From: Escherichia phage ST32
Sequence record: NC_047830.1
DNA: 53,092 nucleotides
Direction: 5' to 3' (one strand)
Positions 589 to 42,158 of the stretch are shown here, piece after piece. The position numbers and the translations under genes were made by a program. Position 1 is the stretch's first letter, and each line of letters opens with the position of its first letter. The notes under the pieces are model-generated. The model searched no databases. It was not told the origin of the DNA and was given only the letters and a program-made list of their open reading frames with translations.

Positions 589-606
589 ATATTAGTTGGA
601 AGTGAA
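589..606 (+). promoter_or_regulatory. conserved phage promoter-like motif (ATTAGTTGGAAGTGAA), upstream of RNA polymerase gene
   Basis: member of an 11-copy family with consensus CATTAGTTGGATGTGAA, all in intergenic DNA upstream of + strand genes. Confidence 0.5.
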
Positions 607-672
607 TTGTGTAATGGCTACGCTATTATAATCCGTTTCAGTTAAATCATACACAATCTTGGAGACTTACAA

Positions 673-2613
673 ATGACTACTATCACCACTCAAACTATCA
701 AATCCGTTGTTCCTGCTATCACTGCTCTGGTATACCGTGCCAAAGAGAAACAGAACTATATGCAGCCTCAGACTTGTGCTATTGCTGCCTTAGCCATCTT
801 CAAGATGATGACGTCTTTCACTCGTGATGACGTTGTTCCTGCCATCGCGATGGTTGAGCTGGCTTCTGCTTCTATTGCTGATGCCAACCGTTATAACAAC
901 GATTTGAAAGCAATGCACTATGTTGACCCAGCTATCAACCTCATTGGTCTGGCTAAGCACTTTGGCTTCATTACCATGAACGAAGACAAGTCATTCCAAC
1001 AAACTGATACATGGGTTGAACTGGTTACAACCAAAGACACAGCAGTGCCATTCACTGAACGTGTTACATCTGAATCTCGTCGCAAGCCTTTCGTTAAAGG
1101 TGGCAAAGTTAAGCCATCCAAGACTCTGAAAGCTGCAATCGAATTCCTGCAAGATACTGAGTACCATGTGGAGACTGAGATGGTTCGCATCATCCAGTCC
1201 ATGCTTGAGCAACGTACTTATGGCGGCTTGCAGATGCCAGAAGCAATCCAGACTGAACTCCATGTTTGGAACAATGCTGTAGCAATGATGAATCAGGACA
1301 CGCTGTATTCTGACTACTTTGCTGATAACCGTGGTCGCCTGTATCATGTAGCATGTGCTGGTCCTAACCCACAATCATCTGACTTTGCTCGTTGCTTGTA
1401 TTCTCACAATGTTGAGAACATCGTTAAGAAGTTTAACGAAGATGGTTCTACTACCATTGCATACAACATGTTCATGGCAGAGCTGGAAGATATTTCCGGT
1501 GGTGAATGGTGCAGTGCTAAGCGTCTGACTTATGTTGCTCAGAATCCAGCTGGTTCACTTGCTCGCATGATGAACATGCCTAAAGCTGAACGTCCTTCTA
1601 AGCCATTCACTTATGTTCGTCTGGCTCTGGATTGGTTCAAGTTTGAGACTACAGGTGAATGCGATTCTCGTGTAGGCTTTGGCTTAGATGCTAAATGTTC
1701 TGGTACTCAATATCTGGCATTCATTGCTGGTAACATGGAAATGGCTCGTGCAACAGGTCTGGTTGATTCTGAGACTAAAGCATCTGACCCATACCAGTTG
1801 AGTCTTCGTGAACTGTTGAAGCTGCTGGATAAATCTTCAATGAAGCCATCTCCTGAAATCATGGATGAATTCTTGAATCCGAAAGCTGGTCGTAAGTTTA
1901 TCAAAACTCCATACATGGCTATTCAATATGGTGGTGGTAAAGCTGCATTGACTGGCTCTTCTGACTTCATTAGCTACATGACAGAAGCACTCCAGATTCC
2001 TATGGAGAAAGCTGAGGCATTTGCTGAACTGTGTGTGGAAGCAATCCATAACGCATTGGGTGCTAAGATTAACATGTTCATTGAGAAAGCTGCTGATGCT
2101 GCATACAACCGTTGTGTTGAACTTGGTAAAGAGTATATCACATATCGTCACACTGATGGTCAGGTTGTAATGAAGCCTTGCTTCCCATCTCGTGAAATCT
2201 GTGAGGCATTCAGCATTCGTGTTGATTCTCAAACTCGTGTCATCTTTGGTCAGATTCAGGAGAATAAGCCTTGGACCATTCGTGAATCCAATCCAACTAA
2301 AGAAGAATTCAAGCGTACTTTCGTTGTTAACTACATTCAAGGTATTGATGCACTTGTTGCTCGTACTGTTGCAGTTAAAGCTAAAGAAGCTGGTCTTCGT
2401 GGCTTCACTTCAATCCATGATTGTTTCCGTTGCTGTTTGGCAGATGCTCCACGCATGATGGAAGTTATTCGTGCAGCATATGTTGAAATCTTTGTAACCA
2501 ACAATCAATTCGAGAATCTGTCTAAGCAACTTGGTGGCATTCAGATGTATCATGAGAACATCGTAACCGAAGAGCTTCTGATGAGCGAACACGCTTACTA
2601 CTTCTGCCAGTAA
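673..2613 (+). CDS. single-subunit DNA-dependent RNA polymerase, compact (646 aa)
   Basis: T7 RNAP-like motifs in order: GLDAKCSGTQ (motif A), RKFIKTPYMAIQYGGG (motif B), IHDCFRC (motif C); GGAGA RBS 7 nt upstream of the ATG. Confidence 0.85.
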   Translation: MTTITTQTIKSVVPAITALVYRAKEKQNYMQPQTCAIAALAIFKMMTSFTRDDVVPAIAMVELASASIADANRYNNDLKAMHYVDPAINLIGLAKHFGFITMNEDKSFQQTDTWVELVTTKDTAVPFTERVTSESRRKPFVKGGKVKPSKTLKAAIEFLQDTEYHVETEMVRIIQSMLEQRTYGGLQMPEAIQTELHVWNNAVAMMNQDTLYSDYFADNRGRLYHVACAGPNPQSSDFARCLYSHNVENIVKKFNEDGSTTIAYNMFMAELEDISGGEWCSAKRLTYVAQNPAGSLARMMNMPKAERPSKPFTYVRLALDWFKFETTGECDSRVGFGLDAKCSGTQYLAFIAGNMEMARATGLVDSETKASDPYQLSLRELLKLLDKSSMKPSPEIMDEFLNPKAGRKFIKTPYMAIQYGGGKAALTGSSDFISYMTEALQIPMEKAEAFAELCVEAIHNALGAKINMFIEKAADAAYNRCVELGKEYITYRHTDGQVVMKPCFPSREICEAFSIRVDSQTRVIFGQIQENKPWTIRESNPTKEEFKRTFVVNYIQGIDALVARTVAVKAKEAGLRGFTSIHDCFRCCLADAPRMMEVIRAAYVEIFVTNNQFENLSKQLGGIQMYHENIVTEELLMSEHAYYFCQ

Positions 2614-2633
2614 CAACTATGTGCCAAGGATGG

Positions 2634-2650
2634 CATTAGTTGCATGTGAA
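2634..2650 (+). promoter_or_regulatory. conserved phage promoter-like motif CATTAGTTGCATGTGAA
   Basis: motif family member; 29 bp upstream of the 2679 start. Confidence 0.5.
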
Positions 2651-2678
2651 TCTAATAAAACAATTTGGAGACTTTATA

Positions 2679-2846
2679 ATGTTTACAGTGACCTTAGTAA
2701 CCTATTACGGCAAACAAGTTTGTGAGAAGTTTGAGACTTTAGAAGAAGCAAGAGCTTTTGCAGCTCGTGAAGAGAATATCTATGTAGAGTGTGAAATCAC
2801 TGATGGTGATATGTCATACGAAGTGGTTAAGCCTGCACTCAACTGA
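2679..2846 (+). CDS. hypothetical small protein
   Basis: ORF with GGAG RBS 8 nt upstream of ATG 2679; the track start at 2640 lies inside the promoter motif. Confidence 0.5.
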   Translation: MFTVTLVTYYGKQVCEKFETLEEARAFAAREENIYVECEITDGDMSYEVVKPALN

Positions 2847-2858
2847 TTCCTAATATTC

Positions 2859-2887
2859 GGACAATATTGTTGCATGTAATATTGTCC
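2859..2887 (+). repeat. inverted repeat GGACAATATT-N9-AATATTGTCC with a GCATGT box in the spacer
   Basis: perfect 10-bp arms read from sequence. Confidence 0.6.
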
Positions 2888-2897
2888 CGATATTCGA

Positions 2898-2914
2898 CAT
2901 TAGTTGGATGTGAA
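2898..2914 (+). promoter_or_regulatory. conserved phage promoter-like motif CATTAGTTGGATGTGAA
   Basis: exact consensus copy; no annotated ORF immediately downstream. Confidence 0.5.
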
Positions 2915-3298
2915 GTAAAAGAATACGGAGAAATATTCCGCATGTCATGTTGAATCATTCTAGAAACATTCAGCATGTCAGCTTTGAGTTACAGTGTTGT
3001 AATGATGTGGCAATCATTGAACTCCCTAGGTAGGCCACCTACAGTTCCAGCAACCATGACTTAGAGTAGGAATATCTATCCGAAACTTGGACTTCACCTA
3101 TAGCATGTTCAATTGCGACAATATTGCTCCATCTCCTATTATAAAGGCCCACCCACAAGCCGGGAGATAACTTTGGTAATATTGGAACTTTTGGACATGC
3201 TTCTTTCTTTCAATCAGAATTCGAAAGAAGAGAAGAAGTCGGACAAAGCCGCGAAACTAATCCCGTAGCCCGCCCCGATTTTGAGCAACAAATATTGT

Positions 3299-3310
3299 GA
3301 CAATATTGTC
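3299..3310 (+). repeat. perfect 12-bp palindrome GACAATATTGTC (operator-like)
   Basis: self-complementary 12-mer; related half-sites CAATATTG recur through 2860-3560 and at 110-130, 300-310. Confidence 0.5.
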
Positions 3311-3750
3311 GCAGTATGGCATGTAAATATTGCTACAAATTGGCATGTTGGAATGTGGCAGAATTGTTAGAGGACTAATCACCTCGAAGATACAATCGTC
3401 TACCAATCTGGCATGTTAATTTTGTAACAGTATTTGTGCCAATTTCGCATGTAATAGCTGTATCAGTATTAACCCAATATTCTTGCAACCCGCATGAATA
3501 CTGGCTTCCAGCCAAGCGAAGGCTTTATCATCGCATGTAAATATTGTGACAATATTGGGATAAAACCCTTTATTTAATTAGTTTTATTATGCTGTACATG
3601 GTCGGTTTTCCGTACCTATTGCGCCACTTCTTGATGTGCCAAATACATTCCAAGATAGGAGCAAACCTGTAATTAATGATGCATGTTTAATTGTGACAAA
3701 ATTCGTCTATTTGGCAGATGAGTTAGTTGCAATTAAGCATGTCCATTTAT

Positions 3751-3767
3751 CATTAGTTGCATGTGAA
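3751..3767 (+). promoter_or_regulatory. conserved phage promoter-like motif CATTAGTTGCATGTGAA
   Basis: motif family member; about 190 bp upstream of first early gene. Confidence 0.5.
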
Positions 3768-3873
3768 TAAGACCAAATCTCTGTAAATTTTGCTGAAATT
3801 GTGTGACAGATTTTAGAGAGATTATGTCTCCAAGCTAATCATTGTAGTTTTTCGGCACTTGCTGTGTCACATA

Positions 3874-3935
3874 CTCCCTACAGCTTTAAGGTGGATTGAG
3901 GTAAGACAAGACCTCCACAATCGTTATGTAGGGAG
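3874..3935 (+). promoter_or_regulatory. 5' leader hairpin (9-bp outer stem CTCCCTACA/TGTAGGGAG enclosing an inner stem); candidate RNase III-type processing or translational control element
   Basis: perfect inverted repeat 3874-3882 / 3927-3935, 24 nt upstream of the 3959 start. Confidence 0.4.
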
Positions 3936-3958
3936 TTCTTTTAACTTAGGAGAATAAA

Positions 3959-4177
3959 ATGACTCGTTTTAAAGATTTGGAAGATGGTGCAATCTTCTTT
4001 ACGCGTGGTGGAGAACACCTGCAAAAAGTTTTGGAAGATGATATTAATGTAAATGCAGTATTCGTTGGTGATTCTAACATTGGTGTTTTATTAAATGACA
4101 ATGAGAGAACTTTTACCGAGGAGGAGTTTAAAGAAATCTCAGCCTCTGATTTAGTTCAAGAGCCAATTGAAGTTTAA
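3959..4177 (+). CDS. hypothetical early protein
   Basis: ORF with AGGAGA RBS. Confidence 0.55.
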   Translation: MTRFKDLEDGAIFFTRGGEHLQKVLEDDINVNAVFVGDSNIGVLLNDNERTFTEEEFKEISASDLVQEPIEV

Positions 4178-4216
4178 TGCAGGGGGGAGTAAACCCTCCA
4201 AATTCGGAGAGCAGAA

Positions 4217-4453
4217 ATGAATTACGCGCTGTATCAATACATCAATCGTGACGGTGTTGTTTCTCATGCTTTGGTTAATACTGTAACTAAGGCAGTAATG
4301 TTGGCCGACACGGTGATTTATGGAGAAAGAGGGCGTCTGGTTTGGAAACCTGCTGCACACCCTGAATATGTTTGGCTTGCAATTCAAAATGACAAGCACA
4401 ACAAAATTGTGGCAATGGCTGTTCACCCTCAATTCATTAAAGCACGAGGTTAA
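4217..4453 (+). CDS. hypothetical early protein
   Basis: ORF with GGAGAG RBS. Confidence 0.55.
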   Translation: MNYALYQYINRDGVVSHALVNTVTKAVMLADTVIYGERGRLVWKPAAHPEYVWLAIQNDKHNKIVAMAVHPQFIKARG

Positions 4454-4455
4454 TC

Positions 4456-4644
4456 ATGGACTTCATCGTCTACTTTAAGTTAAATGGTGTGGAGCAAAGA
4501 TTGTACTTCAATTCTTTACTTCGTTTGCAACAGTGGGCGGAGAAGTTTGTTGGGTATGACTTTGAATACATCAACGCATGTACACCTGACGAACATGAGG
4601 AAATCGTGTTCAGTTCTTTAAATCAAATTCTGGAGGCCAAATGA
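4456..4644 (+). CDS. hypothetical early protein
   Basis: ORF with GAGG RBS, tightly packed after the previous gene. Confidence 0.5.
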   Translation: MDFIVYFKLNGVEQRLYFNSLLRLQQWAEKFVGYDFEYINACTPDEHEEIVFSSLNQILEAK

Positions 4645-4835
4645 AGGGCAAGTATGAAAACATATTGCTAAAGTCTCCAAATGGAGTGTTTTATGTGTGC
4701 ACTCCTGAATATAAATTTGCAGCAATGTACCTCGAAAAGTTAAGAGGTTGGATTCCAGTAAATGTGAAAGTGAGTGTGCTGAAAGAGTGTACACTCATTG
4801 GCCGAAATCTAAAATCAAAGGCGGGTTGGTTGTGA
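4641..4835 (+). CDS. hypothetical early protein
   Basis: ORF with GGAGG RBS, ATGA start/stop overlap with upstream gene. Confidence 0.5.
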   Translation: MKGKYENILLKSPNGVFYVCTPEYKFAAMYLEKLRGWIPVNVKVSVLKECTLIGRNLKSKAGWL

Positions 4836-5077
4836 GCCAGTTTAAGTTAAAAGCAGATTTAATCGAGTTGGCCTCTTATGAAGAGAAGGTCGAATTCATT
4901 CAGGAGCGTTTGGTTGTTAACTATGGTGGTTGGTGGGATATTGCAACAGATGAGCTAGTCACCATTGTTAAAGAAGAATTCGGCATTGAGCTGACCAATA
5001 AGCAATTTCTTGATGATGTTCTCACAGATAAAGTCGTTAAAGAAATTACAACCAATTTCATGACAAGTGTTCAGTAG
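4832..5077 (+). CDS. hypothetical early protein (start uncertain; track ORF begins at TTG 4748)
   Basis: GTG 4832 overlaps the upstream TGA (GTGA) and has an AAGGCGGG RBS; the TTG at 4748 has no spacer after its SD. Confidence 0.4.
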   Translation: MSQFKLKADLIELASYEEKVEFIQERLVVNYGGWWDIATDELVTIVKEEFGIELTNKQFLDDVLTDKVVKEITTNFMTSVQ

Positions 5078-5086
5078 GAGTATTAA

Positions 5087-5260
5087 ATGAACGACCAGCA
5101 ATTCAACACATTCATGCAGCAAATTAATCATCAAGAACTGATGGATGCCATTAAAGGCAAGAAGCCAGTCGAGCGTAAATACCGTAAAATTGATAATTAT
5201 ATGCCAACAATCATTGCATGTGTTGGTGTTGCTATTGTTCTCTACTTCCTGGTGAAATAA
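5087..5260 (+). CDS. small membrane protein (57 aa, C-terminal hydrophobic segment)
   Basis: ORF below the track cutoff, translated by hand; AGGAG RBS. Confidence 0.4.
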   Translation: MNDQQFNTFMQQINHQELMDAIKGKKPVERKYRKIDNYMPTIIACVGVAIVLYFLVK

Positions 5261-5355
5261 TGTCAATTGTTAAGAAATTAGTATTCTGTATTTTAATGTT
5301 CCCTTTGGTGCTGCTCGTTGTGGGCAGCTTCATGTACTTAAACTAAGGTAATTAA

Positions 5356-5667
5356 ATGGCTTCTTTACTCGAATTCTCAAATATTGCAAATGTTGCTAAG
5401 AATTCTATTCCTAAAAATCCAGATGTAGTTGCATACATGCGTGTTGATGTGAGTTTGTTGGCCTTTGTAATGGACCACATCAACCTTGTTGAAGAGCAGT
5501 TGCATCAAGCCAATGAAACAATTGATACTCTTCGTGAACTTCGTACAGCAGAGCAAAGTGCTTACGATGAACTGATGGAGCAGAAGAACAAGCTCCAAGA
5601 ACAGTTGGCAGATGCACTTCAACAAATTGAAGAACTGACGCCAACAGCCAGCTCAGCAACCAAATAA
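5356..5667 (+). CDS. hypothetical protein, predicted coiled coil
   Basis: ORF with AAGG RBS; heptad-like charged sequence. Confidence 0.55.
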   Translation: MASLLEFSNIANVAKNSIPKNPDVVAYMRVDVSLLAFVMDHINLVEEQLHQANETIDTLRELRTAEQSAYDELMEQKNKLQEQLADALQQIEELTPTASSATK

Positions 5668-5682
5668 CAATTGGGAGTTATT

Positions 5683-5943
5683 ATGGCGACTAAGACCGGA
5701 ATGATGATTGTCCCAAGCCGTAATAACTCTTTAAGCGGCTTTACACCATATAAAATCTATGAAGTAATTTCTGGCACTGGTGAAGCAAACCTGTCAGAAG
5801 TTGCTTTGAAGTTGGGCCGTATGGTCCACTCCGAAATCTCCTGTAACGTAGTTGATGACGAAGGTAAAATCCGTTTTGTAACAATGGATTTCTTTCGTGA
5901 ATTTAACCTCAAATCTGAATTGGGAGTTCTGTACCATGAATGA
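5683..5943 (+). CDS. hypothetical protein
   Basis: ATG 5683 preceded by GGGAG; track start is TTG 5671. Confidence 0.5.
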   Translation: MATKTGMMIVPSRNNSLSGFTPYKIYEVISGTGEANLSEVALKLGRMVHSEISCNVVDDEGKIRFVTMDFFREFNLKSELGVLYHE

Positions 5944-6118
5944 GGATGATGTTGTTTGCCCGAAGTGTGGCAGCAATAACGTAGACCATGTAACACACGA
6001 AGCAGTGGGAATGTATGGTCCCGTAGTTCTGGACAGTGCATTCTGTGTAGATTGTGGTTTAAACATTTATCGTGGAAAACTTATAGACAACAGTGGGAAT
6101 ATCCCGCCAAAAGGATAA
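5936..6118 (+). CDS. zinc-ribbon protein (CPKCG...CVDCG)
   Basis: two CxxC pairs; ATG 5936 overlaps upstream stop. Confidence 0.45.
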   Translation: MNEDDVVCPKCGSNNVDHVTHEAVGMYGPVVLDSAFCVDCGLNIYRGKLIDNSGNIPPKG

Positions 6119-6120
6119 TC

Positions 6121-6348
6121 ATGAAATTTAAATGTGTTGCTTCAACCAAAGATTATGTTCCAGTTGGCTTCATCGTTGAAGGTGAAGCTATCTCACCTTT
6201 GGAATTTAAAGTGACTAAATCTGCTGAGAATGTTTCTCCAGCATTTCGTAAAGGTGCTGTAGTTCCTATGAATGGTGCATTCTGGACATGGCAGCGTGAC
6301 CATGAAGCAGAATTTGCAGATATTTGTGAACAAGGTTTATTGCAATGA
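6121..6348 (+). CDS. hypothetical protein, paralog of 6345-6575
   Basis: AAGGA RBS; N-terminus MKFKCVAST.. resembles the next gene's MTKFKCVKST.. Confidence 0.5.
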   Translation: MKFKCVASTKDYVPVGFIVEGEAISPLEFKVTKSAENVSPAFRKGAVVPMNGAFWTWQRDHEAEFADICEQGLLQ

Positions 6349-6575
6349 CAAAGTTTAAATGTGTGAAATCAACCTCCTCATCTGAACATACTCCGAAAGT
6401 TGGGGATGTGATTGAGGGAGAACTTATCCACATACAGAGAAGACACGGAACAGACACTCGAATAGTTATTTCGAATGTTGGAAACCGAATGGCTGCAAAC
6501 GGAAGGCCATATTGGAACATTGGTGAAAAGGTTCCGCTAAAAGGTAGTGTCTGGTCCTGGGAAGAAGTCAAATAA
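6345..6575 (+). CDS. hypothetical protein, paralog of 6121-6348
   Basis: ATGA overlap with upstream gene; shared KFKCV..ST..VG..EGE motif. Confidence 0.5.
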   Translation: MTKFKCVKSTSSSEHTPKVGDVIEGELIHIQRRHGTDTRIVISNVGNRMAANGRPYWNIGEKVPLKGSVWSWEEVK

Positions 6576-6638
6576 TTTCCTCAACCACTTTTGTAATGAG
6601 AGTGGTTGCTGAATATTATTAATTAACTTGGAGCATTT

Positions 6639-6929
6639 ATGAAACAGCGTACTCGTTTACAACGTGACCCAGCCACAGGTCGCTTGTTACCAGCATATTT
6701 GAAAGTTGGTGACTTAGTTTACACTCGTGACTTTGCTTTTGATATTTGTCCAAGCAAAGCGTATGAAGTTCTTGCCACCAGCCTGTCTGGTCCTAAAGTG
6801 ATATTTGGTGCGCTTGAGCCAATCCAATTAACAGGAACTCAGTTTGTCATTAAAGACGAATCTGGTTGCAATCGTATCTTCAATCTCGAAGGTGGTTTAT
6901 CCAAATGGGAGAAGGTGAAGCGTGGGTAA
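6639..6929 (+). CDS. hypothetical protein
   Basis: ORF with GGAG RBS. Confidence 0.55.
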   Translation: MKQRTRLQRDPATGRLLPAYLKVGDLVYTRDFAFDICPSKAYEVLATSLSGPKVIFGALEPIQLTGTQFVIKDESGCNRIFNLEGGLSKWEKVKRG

Positions 6930-7155
6930 GAACTATATCGAAATGTTTAAGCAACTGTCCATCAATGGGCAGGAGTTCTTGCTAAACGATGCAAGGCAAG
7001 ATATTGAGCTGTCTGATAAATACAGTTACTCATATCAGAGAACTATTGTAAAATGGACGTTCTCTTATATATCTTACAATCTCCCAGGAGAAACGCTTGT
7101 AATTAGCGGTTCTGGTGATTCAGTTTTAGCAGCTTTGGAGAAATTAAAGCAATGA
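6922..7155 (+). CDS. hypothetical protein (GTG start)
   Basis: GAAGG RBS 6 nt upstream of GTG 6922. Confidence 0.45.
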   Translation: MGKNYIEMFKQLSINGQEFLLNDARQDIELSDKYSYSYQRTIVKWTFSYISYNLPGETLVISGSGDSVLAALEKLKQ

Positions 7156-7439
7156 ACAAGAATTCAATCTTACGTTATGTTGGTAAAACAAACTACAACT
7201 TTACCAACGGTAAGAAGTACAAAATCGTCGCAGGTCGTGGTGACGGGGTTCCTCGCAACAACGGTACACTCGGTGCGTATATTCAATCTCCTTTGGGTTT
7301 TGTCGTTAATGACGATAACCGCAATTTATGTTATCGTACATTCTCCGATAATTGGGAACTTGTGAAAGATTCTGGTGAAGTTAGTTGGTATAAACCTGAA
7401 TCAAACATGGACCCAATTCCAATTTCAAAGGTGATGTAA
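7152..7439 (+). CDS. hypothetical protein
   Basis: ORF, start overlaps upstream stop. Confidence 0.5.
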   Translation: MNKNSILRYVGKTNYNFTNGKKYKIVAGRGDGVPRNNGTLGAYIQSPLGFVVNDDNRNLCYRTFSDNWELVKDSGEVSWYKPESNMDPIPISKVM

Positions 7440-7636
7440 TGCGAGTAAATACTCATTTGTACAGCCACAAAAGCCACAGTCCTATGAACATCTTTGCTGG
7501 ATGGACTCTGTGGTTTGTTGGTGAAGAATGTAGTCCTTGGCATAACGTCGAGTGCAAATTCTTTCCAGTGAAGCCTACCAAAAAGCAAATCCGCAAATTG
7601 CGTAGGAAGTTTATAAACGATTGTAAGTCCTGTTAA
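7439..7636 (+). CDS. hypothetical Cys-containing small protein
   Basis: ORF with AAGGTGA RBS. Confidence 0.45.
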   Translation: MRVNTHLYSHKSHSPMNIFAGWTLWFVGEECSPWHNVECKFFPVKPTKKQIRKLRRKFINDCKSC

Positions 7637-7677
7637 ATTAACAAGGAGCATTCATTGAGTGTTCCTGATTAATCTAA

Positions 7678-7694
7678 CATTAGTTGAGTGTGAA
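7678..7694 (+). promoter_or_regulatory. conserved phage promoter-like motif CATTAGTTGAGTGTGAA
   Basis: motif family member, 20 bp upstream of gene 7715. Confidence 0.5.
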
Positions 7695-7714
7695 TAGCAA
7701 CTTCTGGAGGGCTT

Positions 7715-8197
7715 ATGTACAAATTTAACCCAATGCAAGATGGCATTACGCACATAAATATCTACACTCAAGGAAAGACGCAACTAGGCCGTGCATTGTC
7801 GAATCTATTTGATTGTGAATTTACTGTGCCAGGTTACGGAGATTTTAAGTCTTTGGAGGGATTTTGGTATTACTACCTCACAGGATGTAAGCATGAAGAA
7901 TTAAAATCTCTTGGAGGTTTTGCAGCAAAGAGCTTTGGCAGGAAATTTCCTTTTGACAGAATAGATGAAGAATCTATTGGCCCAGTGGGAGAACAGCGGG
8001 AAGTAATACTTGAAGCAATACGCTGTAAACTGCGACAGAATAAGTGGATTTGTAAGTTGTTGAAAGAATCAGAATTGCCACTGGCACACTACTACGTGCC
8101 TAAAGGAAAAGAGTACTCCATGCAGTATTCAATATCAAAGTTCCAATGGCAGGTCGAAGAATTTGAAAGGTTGAGAAAACTTTTGAAAGGTGTTTGA
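7715..8197 (+). CDS. possible NADAR/YbiA-like domain protein (low-confidence family assignment)
   Basis: GGAGGG RBS; ordered motifs HINIYT, ALSNLF, FKSLEGFWYY, EVILEAIRCKLRQN resemble the YbiA/NADAR fold as I recall it. Confidence 0.55.
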   Translation: MYKFNPMQDGITHINIYTQGKTQLGRALSNLFDCEFTVPGYGDFKSLEGFWYYYLTGCKHEELKSLGGFAAKSFGRKFPFDRIDEESIGPVGEQREVILEAIRCKLRQNKWICKLLKESELPLAHYYVPKGKEYSMQYSISKFQWQVEEFERLRKLLKGV

Positions 8198-8235
8198 TTA
8201 TCAGGGTGCATTTACGAGTGTACCCGAATAATCCA

Positions 8236-8251
8236 ATTAGTTGGATGTGAG
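8236..8251 (+). promoter_or_regulatory. conserved phage promoter-like motif (AATTAGTTGGATGTGAG)
   Basis: motif family member upstream of gene 8323. Confidence 0.45.
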
Positions 8252-8322
8252 GGACAAAGCTATTCCGTGGTTAGCAATGTCACTGAAACTTAAACTGTAA
8301 TTAACTTAAGAGAATCTTAATC

Positions 8323-8700
8323 ATGGCACAATATTCAGATGTAAACACTGGCATTATCGGTCCTAACGGCTTCAAGAAAGACCCAAAACATCCTGACATT
8401 CGTGGACGTATTAACGTTGACGGAATCTGGTATTGGGTATCTGGCTGGAACAAGCAAGCAAATGGTAATGAGTTTACCTCACTTGCATTAACCATCATGA
8501 CCCAAGAACAGGTTGACGAAATGATGCGTAAGCGTGAAGAGAAGGCTAAAGCCAAAGCTCAACCTCAAGCCGCTGCCCAACAGCAACAGCAACGCCAGCA
8601 ACCTTCTGCACAACAGCAAGCACCTGCTCAGCAACAGACGCAGAACAGTAACTACAATCCGAACGAGCCGAAAGACTTCGACGACGACATTCCGTTCTAA
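8323..8700 (+). CDS. small protein with Q/A-rich linker and SSB-type acidic C-terminal tip DFDDDIPF
   Basis: last 8 residues identical to the E. coli SSB C-terminal tip; N-terminal about 70 aa is a possible mini OB fold. Confidence 0.65.
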   Translation: MAQYSDVNTGIIGPNGFKKDPKHPDIRGRINVDGIWYWVSGWNKQANGNEFTSLALTIMTQEQVDEMMRKREEKAKAKAQPQAAAQQQQQRQQPSAQQQAPAQQQTQNSNYNPNEPKDFDDDIPF

Positions 8701-8713
8701 TTGGAGATGCCCT

Positions 8714-8833
8714 ATGAAAATTTTATGTTTTGTAGGGCTACATAATTGGGAGATTTCTCATACAAACGATTATGTAACCTTTTGGGTGTGTAAGCACTGT
8801 TCAGCAATGCGTGAGGAATATCATGGCAACTAA
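8714..8833 (+). CDS. possible small Cys-containing protein (39 aa)
   Basis: GGAG RBS 6 nt upstream of ATG 8714; overlaps start of next gene; weak. Confidence 0.3.
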   Translation: MKILCFVGLHNWEISHTNDYVTFWVCKHCSAMREEYHGN

Positions 8834-9719
8834 CGTTATTGAAATACCTGCCAACTTGGTCAAAACTGGCGACGTTGTAATTCATGAAGGTAAAGAGTAT
8901 CTGATTGGGTATGTCTTCAGAATGGGTGTAGTTCAACTGCAATATTCTGGTGGATGTTTCAATTTTGAGTGGGACCAGGCAGTCAAAATCTTGGATAAAC
9001 GTCCTACTACAGACTCCTTTGCAAAACCGGGCGCAACAACACGCGCAGTATTGGCAAGTCAAGTTCGACCCGGCAACACTTTATCTTATGGAATCAGGCT
9101 CTTTAAGATAAAGGAAGTTAAAGACCTGGGGGAAAGTGAGGTTCGCTTAATCCACGAAACAGGCTACTTTGACTTTTTACACAACCGCGTAGTCCATATT
9201 GTTAACGAGCCACCAGCTTTGGAAACTCCAACAATGGCATTCAACACCGAGATAAAGCCAGTGTTCCTTCCTTACGAGGGAGCAGTGAAACCATTCTCAG
9301 ATGAAGAAGATGTTAAAGGTGCTGATGTTGAAGTTGGCGATGTTATCCGGTATAAAGGTGATTGGGCAACTGTCACAAATGCGTACAAACACCCAAATTC
9401 ACCATACAATAAAATCAATATTAACTACGGCGACGTAAAAGGTTTGCAAGTACGTCTGATATTAACTGGAACTTATTCGAGAAAGGTAAAAGCAGTAATG
9501 GAAACATTAAATATTCAAAATGCAATCGAAGCACAACGCATTCTTCTGCAAAAGCTGGAGCAAATGCTTGATTTAACCCAGCTTCCCCCAACAGAAGATG
9601 GCAAGATGGCAATTGGCAATGCATCAATTCGCGTGGACAAGGCAACAGTTGTTAAGGCCGCACGCGATGAAATGAAAGCTGCCGCAAGCAAATCCGCAGA
9701 GCTTATCAAGAAGCTGTAA
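8823..9719 (+). CDS. hypothetical protein
   Basis: ATG 8823 with GAGGA RBS; two similar KTGDVV / EVGDVI segments. Confidence 0.6.
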   Translation: MATNVIEIPANLVKTGDVVIHEGKEYLIGYVFRMGVVQLQYSGGCFNFEWDQAVKILDKRPTTDSFAKPGATTRAVLASQVRPGNTLSYGIRLFKIKEVKDLGESEVRLIHETGYFDFLHNRVVHIVNEPPALETPTMAFNTEIKPVFLPYEGAVKPFSDEEDVKGADVEVGDVIRYKGDWATVTNAYKHPNSPYNKININYGDVKGLQVRLILTGTYSRKVKAVMETLNIQNAIEAQRILLQKLEQMLDLTQLPPTEDGKMAIGNASIRVDKATVVKAARDEMKAAASKSAELIKKL

Positions 9720-9774
9720 TTAACAGAGGTCATTCCACTTCGAGTGGCCTCGATTAATTATTACCGGAGCATTT

Positions 9775-10125
9775 ATGAAAACTTTATACATTGCACTAAC
9801 AATTCTTTTCGGAGTATTCGCATTCAAATCGGAAGCGTCTGTTCGTAACTTCCAATGTGGCGGATACAAAATGTCCGTTGAAACAATTACAATGAGCCAG
9901 CCACTCATTGCAACAATTTCTTTGCACGAAGGTACTTGGATTGAGATTCCAGACAACGGAAATCCTAACCCAATGTCCACGGTGTTCTATAACACACAGA
10001 GCAGTAAGCTGGCTTTAGTTGGTGTTGACGCTGAGGAACGTCTAGTGCTACAGATTTATCGTGACATTGACTTCTTTCATGCCAAATTTCCACTGTTATC
10101 AACATATTGTAAGGAAGTTAAATGA
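9775..10125 (+). CDS. secreted or periplasmic protein with N-terminal signal peptide
   Basis: MKTLYIALTILFGVFAFKSEA signal-like N-terminus; GGAG RBS. Confidence 0.6.
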   Translation: MKTLYIALTILFGVFAFKSEASVRNFQCGGYKMSVETITMSQPLIATISLHEGTWIEIPDNGNPNPMSTVFYNTQSSKLALVGVDAEERLVLQIYRDIDFFHAKFPLLSTYCKEVK

Positions 10126-10355
10126 CGTCATCCGAATTTACCATTGATGGAGTACCGTACTTACTTGAATCCAGTTGCGAATATCGTCACTGGTCAGTAA
10201 TTCGCGACCGAGTAGTTAAATTCTTGGAGCGAGTAGGTAAAGATGCAGCTATTCTGACTACAGCCACAGTAGAAGGGACAACCGAAATTAATCGGGAGCT
10301 TGTATCTTTTAAATTAACCATCAACCCAACAGGAAATCCATTCCGTGAAAGTTGA
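10122..10355 (+). CDS. hypothetical protein
   Basis: ORF with AGGAAG RBS, ATGA overlap. Confidence 0.5.
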   Translation: MTSSEFTIDGVPYLLESSCEYRHWSVIRDRVVKFLERVGKDAAILTTATVEGTTEINRELVSFKLTINPTGNPFRES

Positions 10356-10614
10356 AGAACTGGCTGACCAACTTAAGGCAGCAAAACGAGAGTCTGCAAA
10401 TCAATCAGAACGTGTTGCAAAACTGAAAGGGCAAGGCTCAACATCCGAAGAAATCCAACTATTTACAGATAATGTCTGGTTTTCAATGAATCGTGCACAG
10501 TTTATCCAGATTCAGGAAGAACGACTTACTGAACTGGAGAAGCGTGTAGAAACACTTGAGAACTTGCTGGAAACACTGCAAGAAACTTTGGACCAGGAGC
10601 TGAAAAATGTCTAA
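10345..10614 (+). CDS. hypothetical coiled-coil protein (GTG start)
   Basis: ORF, charged helical sequence. Confidence 0.45.
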   Translation: MKVEELADQLKAAKRESANQSERVAKLKGQGSTSEEIQLFTDNVWFSMNRAQFIQIQEERLTELEKRVETLENLLETLQETLDQELKNV

Positions 10615-11023
10615 CGTTAAGCTAGGCCAACGCTCCCTTGACAGATTAAAGGGTGTAAATCCTTCATTGGTGGCAGTTTTCAAGCGTGCATGTGAAACAA
10701 TGCCGTTTGATGTAACTGTTCTTGAAGGTTTGCGCACTTATGAGCGTCAGCAGGAGCTTTTAAAGCAGGGTGCAACCAAAGTTTCAGTTAGCCGACACAT
10801 GTCAGGCAATGCTTTAGATATTGCACCGTATCCAATTGACTGGAATGACCTCGAACGATTCAAAGTTTTAGCTCATCACATGTTCAAAGCTGCAAAAGAG
10901 CTTGGAATTACCATTCGTTGGGGTGGGAACTGGAGCCGTATTGATGAAAATCAGCCGTATCCGCCACTTGCACCAGGTAAGAAGAAGCTGATTGATATGC
11001 CGCACTTCGAACTTCCAGCATAA
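10607..11023 (+). CDS. peptidoglycan peptidase, M15 family (T5-endolysin-like L-alanyl-D-glutamate peptidase)
   Basis: SRHMSGNALDIAPY and DMPHFE metal-binding motifs; 138 aa; AGGAG RBS. Confidence 0.8.
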   Translation: MSNVKLGQRSLDRLKGVNPSLVAVFKRACETMPFDVTVLEGLRTYERQQELLKQGATKVSVSRHMSGNALDIAPYPIDWNDLERFKVLAHHMFKAAKELGITIRWGGNWSRIDENQPYPPLAPGKKKLIDMPHFELPA

Positions 11024-11043
11024 CTTCATCAATGGAGCATCCG

Positions 11044-12159: not shown

Positions 12160-12176
12160 CATTAGTGGGATTTGAT
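12160..12176 (+). promoter_or_regulatory. promoter-like motif CATTAGTGGGATTTGAT with upstream TCTGAAA
   Basis: degenerate family member in the ORF-poor region 12090-13091. Confidence 0.4.
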
Positions 12177-12300: not shown

Positions 12301-12317
12301 CATTAATTGGAATTGAA
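12301..12317 (+). promoter_or_regulatory. promoter-like motif CATTAATTGGAATTGAA with upstream TTCTGAAA
   Basis: family member. Confidence 0.4.
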
Positions 12318-12437: not shown

Positions 12438-12454
12438 CATTAGTTGGAATTGAA
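12438..12454 (+). promoter_or_regulatory. promoter-like motif CATTAGTTGGAATTGAA
   Basis: family member. Confidence 0.45.
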
Positions 12455-13871: not shown

Positions 13872-14546
13872 ATGTCTTATCATGATGATGACAAAGAGAT
13901 TGCACTATCAACGTGTAAGCAATGGCTCAATGATAATGATGCCGTCTATCTTGCCAAGGAAGATGTTATCATTATGTGGGTCCATTTTAATCCAGAATCG
14001 AAGCGCGGTGAGTGGCAACGCTACAAGATGAAAGAGGCTTGTCGCATAATTAAAGCCACACGCGCTGGCTTCTCTGCCATGAAATATATTAAGCCGGAGA
14101 TGCTGATGCTTGCTGCACAGGAAGAAGAACGTGCATATAAGCAGGCTGTTAAATCTCGTTCAACTGTTCCTCCAGAGTTCTTTAATTTGGAGCGCGCTGG
14201 ACACTTCAACAATTTAGAAATGTTGACACTGTGCCTGTTGCAAGAATTAGTTGGAAGAGGACAAAACATTGAAGCTGTTTGTCTTGGAGAACTCATGAAA
14301 GAGTTGTTCTTGGCAAAGGGCTTTGCTGTGCCAAACCGAACTTTACGCTGGAAATTGTTGCGAGCAGTCGCGCAAGAAGCTGGTGTAGTTGTTCGTGACA
14401 GAACTAACCGACTTACCGTAACAGGAGTTGGGCGTTTTGTAGCAATCCAGATTGAGGGTTATGACGAATCAATCATCACTGAACTCACTGTCGCTGAGAC
14501 AAAGGATTTAGTAAATAAAACACTAGAACGATTCAATAGATATTGA
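13872..14546 (+). CDS. hypothetical protein (224 aa)
   Basis: long ORF, ATG start. Confidence 0.6.
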   Translation: MSYHDDDKEIALSTCKQWLNDNDAVYLAKEDVIIMWVHFNPESKRGEWQRYKMKEACRIIKATRAGFSAMKYIKPEMLMLAAQEEERAYKQAVKSRSTVPPEFFNLERAGHFNNLEMLTLCLLQELVGRGQNIEAVCLGELMKELFLAKGFAVPNRTLRWKLLRAVAQEAGVVVRDRTNRLTVTGVGRFVAIQIEGYDESIITELTVAETKDLVNKTLERFNRY

Positions 14547-14576: not shown

Positions 14577-14594
14577 CATTAGTTGGATGTGGAA
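14577..14594 (+). promoter_or_regulatory. conserved phage promoter-like motif CATTAGTTGGATGTGGAA with upstream TTCTGAAA
   Basis: family member, 75 bp upstream of gene 14670. Confidence 0.5.
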
Positions 14595-22109: not shown

Positions 22110-22381
22110 TGAAAACTGTATATTCTATTTTTGATGTACAGGAATCAGAGCACCACATGTTTGCTACCGATTCCGAAGTTCTCGCAAAGGACGCTGTAAT
22201 TGCGTTCCTTGAAAAGATTAAGGACAAAGTTTTCGCTTCGTCCGACCCACAGTCTCAAGCATTTAACGATGAGACATTTAAAAGCCTCCAAACTTTAATT
22301 TCGGCAACGTCTTCATTTGAAGAGCTGTCCGAAGCATTAGTTGGATATGACTTCCGACTTGCTATGTTGCAGGTCGACTAA
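22109..22381 (+). CDS. hypothetical protein
   Basis: ORF, TAATG overlap. Confidence 0.5.
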   Translation: MKTVYSIFDVQESEHHMFATDSEVLAKDAVIAFLEKIKDKVFASSDPQSQAFNDETFKSLQTLISATSSFEELSEALVGYDFRLAMLQVD

Positions 22382-27466: not shown

Positions 27467-27652
27467 ATGCGCACAATACAATGTCCTAACTGCCACTATG
27501 AAATTGCAGAAGATGATTTCATAACGCAGCAATGTCCTATCTGTGATTCATACATGCCACTAAACCGCCTGTATTTAAAGGCCGATTCTGGTTTAGGCAG
27601 CATCATTCGCATCAATCCCGTGCAAACTCAGCCATTAGTGGATTGTGATTAA
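27467..27652 (+). CDS. zinc-ribbon protein (CPNCH...CPICD)
   Basis: GGAG RBS; two CxxC pairs. Confidence 0.5.
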   Translation: MRTIQCPNCHYEIAEDDFITQQCPICDSYMPLNRLYLKADSGLGSIIRINPVQTQPLVDCD

Positions 27653-41300: not shown

Positions 41301-42108
41301 GGCGCGAGCCTACGACCGCACTGAATACAGTCATGAGCAAGCTGGTTCGGTGGTAGAAGCGGGTAGAAACTCTGACTTTGCCGAAGGTATGGCCCAATCG
41401 GAAATGTTGCAGGGAAGCCGCGCACGGATGCTGCCGAGCTATAACGTGCCACAAAGTGTCTTATCTAACGGTGCTTCCGTATTTGAGGCTGGCAGTGATG
41501 CACTTGATAGTGTACGCACTGGATTCAACAATACGCGAGAATTTGCTGGAAGTGTTTACGACTTTATCGCCCAAGAAGAATCTGGCGGTCGTGAATATAA
41601 CAAGGATGGTTCCCGTGTAACAAGTCGTACTGGTGCTCGTGGGATAATGCAGATTCTTCCTTCAACAGCCCGTGACCCAGGATTTGGAATCAGGCCATCT
41701 GATGGAACTCCGGAAGATGATGCGCGAGTTGGTCGTGAATACTATGACGCAATGTACAAGCGTTATGGCGACCACGAAAAGGCAATGGCTGCTTACACCG
41801 ATGGTCCTGGCACTGTTGACAAAGCTGTTGATAAGAATGGGTTGGATTGGCTAACTGCTGTTCCTGTACAAGCACAGAATCGCGTCAAAGCATTCCGTGA
41901 ATGGTCCAAGTCTTCTCAGTCTTTGGAAGAAGGTGCTACAGGGTTTACTCGTAATGGAATGTCATACGGTCAAACCCAAACTGTTGTTAATGTTAAGATT
42001 GATGCTAAGGTCAACAACCAGACTGCCTCTGCTACAGTGGCAATTCCTGGTGGCCAGACTGTAACTCAACAGATGAACATGAACAACGGTGCGCAACAAA
42101 GAAGATAA
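38383..42108 (+). CDS. tape measure protein with embedded YqaJ-like nuclease domain and C-terminal lytic transglycosylase domain
   Basis: 1241 aa after tail chaperones; N-terminal Rho-N/SAP-like segment; QGSQEWLDFR...ITGSTVG...SPDGLIGDD..WEHKNP (YqaJ-like); GARGIMQILPSTARDPGFG (SLT-like); Gly-rich tract. Confidence 0.75.
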   Translation: MKTMANQKDLMKLSVNELIALGSQSGLTFHAGMKKSHMVQQLSASAASGWLDTNAELMGGSFEDDSLITESLGDSSMISDAAHIAQVLSSAGYTEAFHAAMNGPTHHVEAVHAYMERLGVNTDDVWMHMPKPNPNLPQGSFNMLNAYMRDTLQGHQDIMPEIPGHYAGDIMAEYSTNRGNIADSYNYMAHMYVDREQYSNHEQYARDISRVAKRLEQELPAAFKEVGYTSASNVGNKSAPHISYMDALPQIGSHSIVSGIAHPRAPLNASGLPLGSYGSGINPEYSLTASLTGGTGWSEPSKALYSSISEAVKSAAKVYSGSKGMMNTRHEVSDRDMIMDSATRYTDLEEARSGYENLRSELADEPAYSASSVRAILENTYDKMDAEPVRIPKMKGASQRIEKDSQPTSTEFTAQLGEATNWNSARMRREEIAIANMDSAGFRDVSDYGTGRSESPVRFHDLEQGSQEWLDFRKNYDITGSTVGTFLGNNPYTRPWAGMIDKIGLSRSKEHSDFTKKMFADGHRTEEEARARVGKEFGFDIKQTGAITNDNYPAFMYSPDGLIGDDAIWEHKNPQRAGKFADLLKGDHPDYMDQIQFGMHVSGRSRALFSQTINDETRSQWIEKDEGWYERNRNRLDSVLGRLDAGREFVRNNAGLDREELIAGARSAMTGDGIWKDIRQRSTRGYSAVAGTPEDPFIGSRSSYNPTASYSDYQPNFVMHEQNFPATTGNGDTGNDSMALSVKKGILAAQEENRQKGIGADADFNGKADSMGWDRERFDAANGGGYSGGGGGRGGNFTSGGNYYDDYGRMGGSLAAGIAGGSIGSATNGVMQALMATPAGRMAAVGIGAIQIGNEAAEYMNDFIGNSLDAGVINPNEYSSMSQGLEMLGLNSQQAARLNQTAHSAYNTMLNGDPSAAVNIVRGSRGLLTIGDIRATGGDPVALARIMQERGKERGWSQARIAGAAEMAGLNGMARAYDRTEYSHEQAGSVVEAGRNSDFAEGMAQSEMLQGSRARMLPSYNVPQSVLSNGASVFEAGSDALDSVRTGFNNTREFAGSVYDFIAQEESGGREYNKDGSRVTSRTGARGIMQILPSTARDPGFGIRPSDGTPEDDARVGREYYDAMYKRYGDHEKAMAAYTDGPGTVDKAVDKNGLDWLTAVPVQAQNRVKAFREWSKSSQSLEEGATGFTRNGMSYGQTQTVVNVKIDAKVNNQTASATVAIPGGQTVTQQMNMNNGAQQRR

Positions 42109-42141
42109 GGAGTTGGGGAGAAATCCCCAGCTTTCCTTTTA

Positions 42142-42158
42142 CATTAGTTGAATATGTA
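42142..42158 (+). promoter_or_regulatory. promoter-like motif CATTAGTTGAATATGTA
   Basis: family member, 24 bp upstream of gene 42182. Confidence 0.4.

What the first reader, a model, noticed from the sequence alone, without database searches (positions are those of the whole stretch)
589..42158. Conserved 17-25 bp promoter-like motif family (consensus TTCTGAAACATTAGTTGGATGTGAA)
Eleven copies of CATTAGTTG(G/C)ATGTGAA-like sequence occur at 589-606, 2634-2650, 2898-2914, 3751-3767, 7678-7694, 8236-8251, 12160-12176, 12301-12317, 12438-12454, 14577-14594 and 42142-42158. All are on the + strand in intergenic DNA, usually 20-200 bp upstream of a start codon. Length, strict conservation and placement are what is expected of promoters for a phage single-subunit RNAP rather than sigma70 promoters. 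Ten of the eleven lie in the early and middle region and only one in the structural region, so late genes may use a different signal.
Basis: seen in the sequence. Interest (0 to 1): 0.5.

Follow-up and report, generated by a model that had tools for sequence, protein, structure and literature searches.

The report
Predicted promoters for phage's own RNA polymerase
A 17-base motif repeated 12 times on the gene strand is almost certainly the promoter read by this phage's own small T7-type RNA polymerase; the same motif was annotated as a putative phage promoter in the type phage phiEcoM-GJ1 and has never been tested experimentally.

Summary
CATTAGTTGGATGTGAA-like sequences occur 12 times (the 11 reported plus 22335-22351), all on the + strand, against 0.25 expected by chance. 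Eleven of the 12 lie in non-coding gaps.

The window is a complete genome of a phiEcoM-GJ1-like myophage (Chaseviridae, Carltongylesvirus). It encodes a 646-aa single-subunit RNA polymerase with a T7 fold at 673-2613.

The GenBank record of phiEcoM-GJ1 already annotates the same motif, at matching positions, as "putative phage promoter 1-9". This is therefore a rediscovery.

New support for the promoter reading:
- The motif is an island of conservation at matching intergenic positions in four genera whose flanks have diverged.
- It travels with the polymerase into metagenomic relatives and an integrated relative (52-54% identity). It changes at 44% and is absent at 35-41%.
- Hairpins sit directly upstream of several copies.
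- There is no sigma-70 -10 box and no consistent RNA fold.
- One copy precedes the polymerase gene itself.

I found no experimental mapping. The 2022 ICTV family profile says the family's promoters are "not yet identified".

The parts
673..2613 (+). Gene for the 646-aa single-subunit RNA polymerase, the presumed reader of the motif
   Evidence: Pfam PF00940 E=3.7e-18. AlphaFold model pLDDT 91, best PDB matches T7 RNAP and mitochondrial RNAPs, E=4e-19, about 14% identity. Motif C IHDCF at 581-585. Beta-strands at 506-537 lie where T7 has its specificity loop (inference).
590..606 (+). Motif copy TATTAGTTGGAAGTGAA, 66 nt upstream of the RNAP start codon
   Evidence: A matching copy lies upstream of the RNAP gene in GJ1 (572), PP101 (356), PA_03 (173), L007 (9950), L008 (2135) and L032 (9400). 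Not annotated in the GJ1 record.
2634..2650 (+). Motif copy CATTAGTTGCATGTGAA, 28 nt upstream of the ATG at 2679 (55-aa protein, phrog_32102)
2898..2914 (+). Motif copy, perfect consensus CATTAGTTGGATGTGAA, at the head of the ORF-poor stretch 2915-3750
   Evidence: Equals GJ1 'putative phage promoter 1'.
3751..3767 (+). Motif copy, 191 nt upstream of the first small early ORF (3959)
   Evidence: Equals GJ1 promoter 2.
7678..7694 (+). Motif copy CATTAGTTGAGTGTGAA, 20 nt upstream of ORF 7715-8197
   Evidence: The GJ1 scan found no copy between 3836 and 7047, so GJ1 has no counterpart.
8235..8251 (+). Motif copy, 71 nt upstream of the ssDNA-binding protein gene (8323-8700), preceded by a conserved hairpin
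   Evidence: Conserved upstream of the SSB gene in GJ1, PP101, PA_03 and SSEM1. Equals GJ1 promoter 3.
12160..12176 (+). First of three tandem motif copies in an ORF-poor stretch, followed by a 15%-GC segment
   Evidence: Equals GJ1 promoter 4.
12301..12317 (+). Second tandem copy, 141 nt after the first
12438..12454 (+). Third tandem copy, 137 nt after the second
   Evidence: Its downstream flank equals that of GJ1 promoter 5.
14577..14593 (+). Motif copy, 76 nt upstream of ORF 14670-15008 (phrog_17419)
   Evidence: Conserved in GJ1, PP101, PA_03 and SSEM1. Equals GJ1 promoter 7.
22335..22351 (+).
   Evidence: Equals GJ1 promoter 8.
42142..42158 (+). Motif copy with a degenerate 3' half (CATTAGTTGAATATGTA), 23 nt upstream of the baseplate-hub gene
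   Evidence: Equals GJ1 promoter 9. Matching weak copies in PP101, PA_03 and SSEM1.
42109..42134 (+). Terminator-like hairpin (11 pairs, then a T-rich tail) directly after the tape-measure gene and 7 nt before motif copy 42142
   Evidence: A hairpin of different sequence holds the same place in PP101, PA_03 and SSEM1.
27633..27649 (+). Sub-threshold motif-like site CATTAGTGGATTGTGAT, overlapping the start of the large-terminase ORF (27645); uncertain
   Evidence: Score 15.5, within the range reached by shuffles (maximum 16.6). A comparable weak site lies before a terminase-region ORF in PA_03 at 26632.
14245..14261 (+). Weak in-gene motif-like site AATTAGTTGGAAGAGGA inside ORF 13872-14546; uncertain
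   Evidence: Score 11.2. Equals GJ1 'promoter 6'. Present in PP101, PA_03 and SSEM1 (scores 16-19), but inside a conserved coding sequence, so its conservation says nothing.

Best explanation
The 12 copies of R-CATTAGTTG-(G/A)A(T/A)G-TG(A/G)A are the promoters recognised by the phage's own 646-aa single-subunit, T7-fold RNA polymerase (gene at 673-2613).

Proposed sequence of events, inferred by analogy with T7-group phages:
1. Host RNA polymerase first transcribes the polymerase gene, which lies at the left end of the genome inside the predicted terminal repeat.
2. The new enzyme binds the invariant 5' block CATTAGTTG as duplex DNA.
3. It melts the DNA around the 3' block TG(A/G)A.
4. It starts RNA synthesis at or just after that block, rightwards, in the direction of all genes.

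Proposed roles of the copies:
- The copy in front of the polymerase gene (590) would give positive feedback.
- Copies at 2634-14577 would drive early and middle genes.
- Copies at 22335 and 42142 would re-start transcription into the replication and late regions. The 42142 copy sits directly after a terminator-like hairpin.

Shown here: the motif's statistics, strand and placement, its conservation, its co-occurrence with the polymerase family, and the absence of sigma-70 or RNA-structure features. Inferred: binding by this polymerase, the start site, and the timing.
For: - Statistics: 12 copies against 0.25 expected, all on the + strand. They are clearly separated from background in a weight-matrix scan and are the top family in motif-blind searches.
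- Placement: 11 of 12 lie in the roughly 13% of the genome that is non-coding, mostly 20-191 nt before a start codon.
- The enzyme exists: Pfam RNA_pol and a T7 RNAP fold.
- Conservation: the same motif lies at matching intergenic positions in GJ1, PP101 (Suwonvirus), PA_03 (Myducvirus) and SSEM1 (Loessnervirus). Column agreement is 0.79-0.96 in the motif against 0.51-0.65 in the flanks.
- It follows the polymerase: copies occur in a Hafnia prophage-like element (RNAP 52% identical) only in the phage part. In L007 (54%) it is nGTTAGTTGG...TGA. In L008 (44%) it is CATTAGTTG....ATGGAGaata. It is absent from L009 (41%) and Vibrio VPs20 (35%).
- The candidate specificity-loop segment SIRVDSxTRVIFGQ changes in step with the motif.
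- Hairpins lie directly upstream of several copies, and their structure rather than their sequence is conserved.
- No conserved -10-like element lies 13-18 nt downstream.
- There is no consistent RNA fold.
- The GJ1 depositors annotated the same sites as putative phage promoters.
- Multi-copy exact matches in IMG/VR are confined to contigs of 52-57 kb, the size of Chaseviridae genomes; three have the exact lengths of GJ1, Mangalitsa and flopper. About 11 single hits elsewhere fit my rough estimate of the chance expectation.
Against: - I found no transcript 5' ends, binding data or in vitro transcription for any member of the family. The ICTV 2022 profile says the promoters 'have not yet been identified'.
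- The base after the motif varies (T, G or A), and the 3' block is TG(A/G)A rather than the TATA-G of classical T7-group promoters, so the start site cannot be placed.
- Only two good copies serve the 30 kb of late genes.
- Three copies (2898, 12160, 12301) are not followed closely by an ORF.
- The link between specificity loop and motif rests on a handful of lineages and an unaligned structural inference.
Confidence: 0.8

Rival explanations
1. The motif is a promoter element for the host RNA polymerase redirected by a phage factor, in the way T4 MotA/AsiA uses a -30 'MotA box', or it is the binding site of a phage activator or repressor. It would then not be the recognition sequence of the phage polymerase.
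For: - The motif contains a -35-like TTGGAT/TTGGAA/TTGCAT.
- One copy (12438) is followed by GATAAT at 17 nt.
- Most early proteins are of unknown function, so a DNA-binding factor cannot be excluded.
- The ICTV profile regards the polymerase's promoters as unidentified.
Against: - Across 43 sites from six genomes there is no information 13-18 nt downstream, where a -10 box would lie.
- The motif is asymmetric and single, not a dyad or direct-repeat operator.
- It is kept across hosts as different as Escherichia, Pectobacterium, Proteus, Pantoea and Hafnia, and it changes with the phage polymerase rather than with the host.
Confidence: 0.1
2. The motif acts at the RNA level, as a processing site, a binding site for an RNA-binding protein, or an antitermination signal in polycistronic transcripts.
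For: Strand-specific, intergenic placement in the direction of transcription is also what an RNA element would show.
Against: - There is no common secondary structure. The motif pairs with different partners at each site, and the mean z-score is -0.96.
- Conservation is of primary sequence over 17 nt, with unconstrained flanks.
- One copy lies about 130 bp from the predicted physical left end and others lie directly after terminator-like hairpins, where little upstream transcription would reach them.
Confidence: 0.04
3. The motif is a replication or packaging element (iteron-like origin repeats, or a terminase or nuclease recognition site).
For: - Three copies are clustered at 12160-12454 around a 15%-GC stretch.
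- Three copies lie in the predicted terminal repeat.
Against: - Nine copies are dispersed singly, each before a gene, over 42 kb.
- All share the orientation of the genes.
- Spacing in the cluster is about 140 bp, not iteron-like.
- A role of the clustered copies in transcription-primed replication, as in T7, would be a consequence of promoter function and not an alternative to it.
Confidence: 0.03

Closest known systems
'Putative phage promoters 1-9' annotated in Escherichia phage phiEcoM-GJ1 (GenBank EF460875; genome paper Jamalludeen et al. 2008, cited)
   Same: Same 17-20 nt sequence and same relative positions. GJ1 promoters 1, 2, 3, 4, 5, 7, 8 and 9 correspond to window copies 2898, 3751, 8235, 12160, 12438, 14577, 22335 and 42142. 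GJ1 promoter 6 corresponds to the weak in-gene site 14245.
   Different: The window has further good copies at 590 (present but not annotated in GJ1 at 572), 2634 (degenerate in GJ1), 7678 and 12301 (no GJ1 counterpart). The GJ1 annotation is a prediction. I could not read the paper itself because it is not held.
Promoters of T7-group single-subunit RNA polymerases (T7, T3, SP6, K11; consensus sequences recalled from memory)
   Same: - A conserved, asymmetric element of about 17-23 bp in the direction of the genes.
- Intergenic placement, often just after a terminator.
- Read by a phage-encoded polymerase of the same fold.
- Two conserved blocks separated by a variable stretch.
- The best ungapped register against SP6, K11 and T3 puts motif position 1 at -17 (7-8 of 17 matches, shared ATTAG-type 5' end).
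   Different: - No window sequence comes within 4 mismatches of 18 of any of the four consensus promoters.
- The 3' block is TG(A/G)A, not TATA.
- No conserved G run follows.
- The enzyme is about 240 residues shorter than T7 RNAP and only about 14% identical.
- One copy precedes the polymerase gene itself, which from memory is not the case in T7.
T4 middle promoters (MotA box at -30 plus a sigma-70 -10 box; recalled from memory)
   Same: A phage-specific upstream motif in front of early and middle genes of a myovirus.
   Different: No -10 element accompanies the motif, and the phage carries its own polymerase.

Membership tests
phiEcoM-GJ1-type 'putative phage promoter' motif of Cleopatravirinae (Chaseviridae) | Sequence matches the annotated 20-mers (nnnCATTAGTTGGATGTGAA-like) | tested here: met
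   The annotated GJ1 features, extracted and compared with the window copies, are identical or differ at 1-3 positions.
phiEcoM-GJ1-type 'putative phage promoter' motif of Cleopatravirinae (Chaseviridae) | Same relative genomic positions (after the RNAP gene, before the SSB gene, ORF-poor stretch at about 10-12 kb, before the baseplate-hub gene) | tested here: met
Promoters of T7-type single-subunit RNA polymerases | The genome encodes a single-subunit RNAP of the T7 / mitochondrial fold | tested here: met
   Pfam PF00940 E=3.7e-18. Model pLDDT 91. Foldseek match to T7 RNAP E=4e-19, probability 1.0.
Promoters of T7-type single-subunit RNA polymerases | Conserved asymmetric element of about 17-23 bp, in gene orientation, intergenic, in many copies per genome | tested here: met
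Promoters of T7-type single-subunit RNA polymerases | Transcription by the phage enzyme starts at a fixed base at the 3' edge of the element and is resistant to rifampicin | not testable with these tools
   I found no transcript data for any chasevirus.
Promoters of T7-type single-subunit RNA polymerases | Two-part architecture: an upstream binding block, then an A+T-rich melting block (TATA) followed by +1 G | tested here: inconclusive
   Two blocks are seen: CATTAGTTG and TG(A/G)A, with 4 variable positions between them. The 3' block is not TATA and the next base varies.
Promoters of T7-type single-subunit RNA polymerases | Promoter sequence co-varies with the polymerase, in particular with its specificity loop | tested here: inconclusive
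   The motif is kept at 52-98% RNAP identity, altered at 54% and 44%, and absent at 41% and 35%. The candidate loop segment changes in parallel. The lineages are few and the loop assignment is inferred.
Promoters of T7-type single-subunit RNA polymerases | Sequence similarity to the T7, T3, SP6 or K11 consensus | tested here: not met
   No site within 4 mismatches of 18. The motif consensus shares 5-8 of 17 positions with them (the consensus sequences were recalled from memory). It is therefore a separate specificity class, not a member of those promoter sets.
Sigma-70 or MotA-type host-polymerase promoters | A -10 hexamer at a fixed distance downstream of the upstream element | tested here: not met
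   No information above background 13-18 nt after the motif in 43 sites. Sigma-70-like matches in the window are not above the shuffle expectation.

The most novel reading that the evidence does not exclude
The motif is the cognate promoter of an unusually compact (646 aa), deeply diverged T7-fold polymerase. Its layout adds two functions not described for this family.

1. A self-amplifying loop. A phage promoter sits in front of the polymerase gene, inside the terminal repeat, and this arrangement is conserved in at least seven relatives.
2. A transcription-primed origin, formed by the tandem copies at 12160-12454 around a 15%-GC stretch and an opposing perfect sigma-70 consensus.

If confirmed, the enzyme and promoter would also be a new small orthogonal transcription system.
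Probability: 0.3. Interest if true: 0.5.

Novelty: already known. Interest (0 to 1): 0.3.

Why it matters
Chaseviridae are the myoviruses that carry a T7-type polymerase, and their family profile still lists the promoters as unidentified. A well-supported promoter set is the starting point for mapping the transcription programme of these phages, which are being studied as therapy and biocontrol agents. The set described here has 12 copies, conserved across four genera and in an integrated relative. It also defines a testable polymerase and promoter pair that is 240 residues smaller than T7's. As a discovery it adds little, because the motif was annotated in the type phage's GenBank record. What is added here is comparative support, four extra copies, and the copy in front of the polymerase gene.

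Tried and rejected
- Sigma-70 reading. I looked for a -10 box at a fixed distance in a 43-site logo and found none. Consensus scans were not above shuffle expectation.
- RNA-structure reading. I folded +/-30 nt around each copy and found no shared structure. Rfam finds only the tRNA.
- Classical T7, T3, SP6 and K11 promoters. None is present.
- A second late-gene motif. The k-mer family search, all-against-all 18-mer clustering and a gap-restricted search gave no further + strand family outside 1-3800.
- A distinct motif in the distant subfamily (Vibrio VPs20). Only a weak candidate with 2-4 copies turned up, CTCGCCCACTAGAATTTGG. I did not pursue it.
- Literature. I found no transcript mapping or biochemistry for this polymerase. 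The phiEcoM-GJ1 genome paper and the Erwinia Y2 paper are not held.
- Residue-level mapping of the T7 specificity loop, AT-rich recognition loop and intercalating hairpin. The fold search returns no residue alignment, so the loop assignment stays an inference.
Full report
**What the window is.** Megablast of the first 20 kb gives 94-96% identity to Escherichia phages EcoM1, SA91KD and DE15, and 90% to phiEcoM-GJ1. GJ1 is classified in Chaseviridae, Cleopatravirinae, Carltongylesvirus. At 53,092 bases the window is about one unit genome (GJ1 is 52,975). My gene model places all genes on the + strand, as is reported for related phages. ORF 673-2613 (646 aa) matches Pfam RNA_pol (E=3.7e-18).

**The observation.** CATTAGTTGGATGTGAA with up to 3 mismatches occurs 12 times, all on the + strand, against 0.25 expected (maximum 2 in 100 shuffles).
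- All 11 reported copies are there, with 1-base offsets in three.
- A 12th copy at 22335-22351 was missed.
- A weight matrix separates the 12 (scores 21.5-29.9) from the next best + strand site (27633, score 15.5, inside the shuffle range).
- Two searches that did not use the motif (all-against-all 18-mers, and 16-mers restricted to non-coding gaps) return it as the top family.
- Eleven of the 12 lie in the roughly 13% of the genome not covered by my ORF model. The 12th lies in the last 47 nt of an ORF.
- In a logo of 43 sites from six genomes, information is confined to R-CATTAGTTG-(G/A)A(T/A)G-TG(A/G)A, plus a weak T at -4. The core of that logo is biased by how the sites were selected; the flanks are not.

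**It has been described before.** The GenBank record of phiEcoM-GJ1 carries nine features named "putative phage promoter 1-9". Their sequences are this motif.
- They correspond to window copies 2898, 3751, 8235, 12160, 12438, 14577, 22335 and 42142, plus the weak in-gene site 14245.
- Copies 590, 2634, 7678 and 12301 have no annotated GJ1 counterpart. GJ1 does have an unannotated copy at 572.
- The prediction was never tested as far as I can find. [quoted passage not shown]
- Papers on ST32, PP101, Mangalitsa, the Yersinia phages and Tiny contain no promoter mapping.
- A 2025 survey of T7-like polymerase and promoter pairs does not mention this family.

**Comparative evidence.** With a matrix built from the window alone, the motif is found on the + strand at matching intergenic positions in three other genera: Pectobacterium phage PP101 (Suwonvirus), Proteus phage PA_03 (Myducvirus) and Pantoea phage SSEM1 (Loessnervirus). 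Their polymerases are 66-72% identical to the window's.
- Sites anchored on the motif show column agreement of 0.79-0.96 within it and 0.51-0.65 in 60-nt flanks.
- In metagenomic relatives the motif follows the polymerase with modification. L007 (54% identity) has nGTTAGTTGG...TGA. L008 (44%) has CATTAGTTG....ATGGAGaata. L009 (41%) and Vibrio phage VPs20 (35%, Nefertitivirinae) have none.
- In a Hafnia alvei chromosome an integrated relative (52%) carries good copies only in its phage part, including one before and two just after the polymerase gene.
- Multi-copy exact matches in IMG/VR are confined to contigs of 52-57 kb, three of which have the exact lengths of GJ1, Mangalitsa and flopper. 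About 11 single hits elsewhere are in line with my rough estimate of the chance expectation.

**The polymerase.**
- By sequence it is barely recognisable as a T7 relative (phmmer E=0.003 to T7 RNAP, matching only around motifs A and C).
- An AlphaFold model from 42 homologues is confident (pLDDT 91, pTM 0.85).
- Its best PDB matches are T7 RNAP and mitochondrial RNAPs (E=4e-19, about 14% identity).
- It is about 240 residues shorter than T7 RNAP. In the sequence alignment, residue 205 aligns with T7 residue 408, so most of the deficit lies in the N-terminal part.
- Beta-strands at 506-537 lie 46-77 residues before the catalytic Asp583, where T7 has its specificity loop. This is an inference, not a residue alignment.
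- That segment is SIRVDSxTRVIFGQ in all lineages with the standard motif. It is SIRLDPRTRVIFGN in L007, AIRVAANVNVNFGN in L008 and SLFLGTGEQTMYFGK in L009.

**Local architecture.**
- A terminator-like hairpin (42109-42134) follows the tape-measure gene and ends 7 nt before copy 42142. PP101, PA_03 and SSEM1 have hairpins of different sequence at the same place.
- A hairpin with compensating changes precedes the copy before the SSB gene, and hairpins precede the post-polymerase copy in GJ1 and PA_03.
- No -10-like element follows the motif, and sigma-70-like matches are not enriched.
- The RNA around the copies has no shared fold.
- No T7, T3, SP6 or K11 consensus promoter is present. The best register against the SP6, K11 and T3 consensus puts motif position 1 at -17, with 7-8 of 17 matches (consensus sequences from memory). 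That register would place +1 right after the motif, but that base varies, so the start site is open.

**Mechanism proposed.** Shown: the motif, its placement, its conservation and its co-occurrence with the polymerase family. Inferred by analogy with T7-group phages:
1. The host polymerase makes the first polymerase mRNA.
2. The phage enzyme then binds CATTAGTTG, opens the DNA near TG(A/G)A and transcribes rightwards.
3. Copy 590 gives positive feedback on the polymerase gene.
4. Copies from 2634 to 14577 serve early and middle genes.
5. Copies 22335 and 42142 re-start transcription into the replication and late modules.

I put this at 0.8. The rivals are a host-polymerase or regulator site (0.1), an RNA element (0.04) and a replication or packaging repeat (0.03).

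There are two good copies beyond 22 kb, not one, and a sub-threshold site at the start of the terminase gene. No other repeated + strand motif was found in the late region. Whether late genes are read through from upstream promoters or use an undetected signal cannot be decided from sequence.

**Verdict.** The function remains unproven experimentally, and the proposed experiments are simple.

Noticed in passing
window 2840-3760, also 100-420: A second, strand-specific repeat family fills the ORF-poor stretch between motif copies 2898 and 3751: GCATGT followed by the near-palindrome AATATTGTGACAATATTG. Twelve of the genome's 21 + strand GCATGT lie here, with only one reverse copy. About 9 AATATTG-type units occur here and at 117 and 389. 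The same family follows the polymerase gene in L007, PP101 and SSEM1. These may be host-polymerase early promoters, operators, or elements tied to the terminal-repeat boundary.
   Followed up: partly
window about 460-3237: Alignment with phage Mangalitsa, whose PhageTerm-predicted direct terminal repeat spans 1-3234, suggests the window's terminal repeat is about 460-3237. On that reading the polymerase gene and motif copies 590, 2634 and 2898 would be present at both ends of virion DNA, and copy 590 would lie about 130 bp from the left end. The right boundary falls at an inverted repeat (cttctttc...gaaagaag, about 3200-3236). The most A+T-rich 60 nt of the genome (261-320, 10% GC) lies about 140 nt to the left of the predicted left end.
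   Followed up: partly
window 12160-12460: The three tandem motif copies flank the second most A+T-rich segment of the genome (12235-12294, 15% GC). A perfect sigma-70 consensus, TTGACA-18-TATAAT, sits on the minus strand at 12230-12201, in a genome whose genes are all on the + strand. This resembles the T7 primary origin (tandem phage promoters plus an A+T-rich segment; from memory). It is a candidate replication origin or antisense transcript.
   Followed up: partly
L032 (Hafnia alvei chromosome) 6881-21947; L007 18330-19304; L008 151-1035: Relatives of this polymerase (44-54% identity) lie next to integrase genes. In L032 the element is integrated in a bacterial chromosome, in the order host genes, integrase, holin, hydrolase, polymerase, ArdA. 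Other homologues come from Lelliottia and Pseudomonas genome records. The ICTV profile describes Chaseviridae as lytic, so temperate or integrated relatives with a single-subunit polymerase may be worth a look.
   Followed up: partly
window 2285-2303 (- strand): A motif-like sequence, TCTTTAGTTGGATTGGATT (score 13.3), lies on the minus strand inside the polymerase gene. It recurs at the matching place in GJ1 (2273) and PP101 (1993). It is inside conserved coding sequence and below the chance threshold, so it may mean nothing.
   Followed up: no
window 607-633; PP101 (L002) about 305-320; PA_03 (L003) about 120-140: The 12-mer ATGGCTACGCTA is conserved near the polymerase gene's upstream region in three genera. 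In the window it is followed by a perfect TATAAT at 627-632. It lies downstream of the phage-type motif in the window and upstream of it in PP101 and PA_03. It is a candidate host promoter for the first round of polymerase synthesis.
   Followed up: no
window 15909-16003: A 95-nt tRNA gene. ARAGORN calls it tRNA-Leu (CAG), and Rfam tRNA scores 43.8 bits. A 95-nt tRNA gene in the GJ1 record (14456-14550), probably the counterpart though I did not align the two, is annotated as tRNA-Arg that may contain an intron.
   Followed up: no
L004 (Vibrio phage VPs20) 2473-2491, 3555-3573, about 5108, about 20998: The distant subfamily (Nefertitivirinae, polymerase 35% identical) lacks the motif. It has a weak candidate of its own, CTCGCCCACTAGAATTTGG, in non-coding gaps on the + strand. 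Only two copies fall within 3 mismatches.
   Followed up: partly
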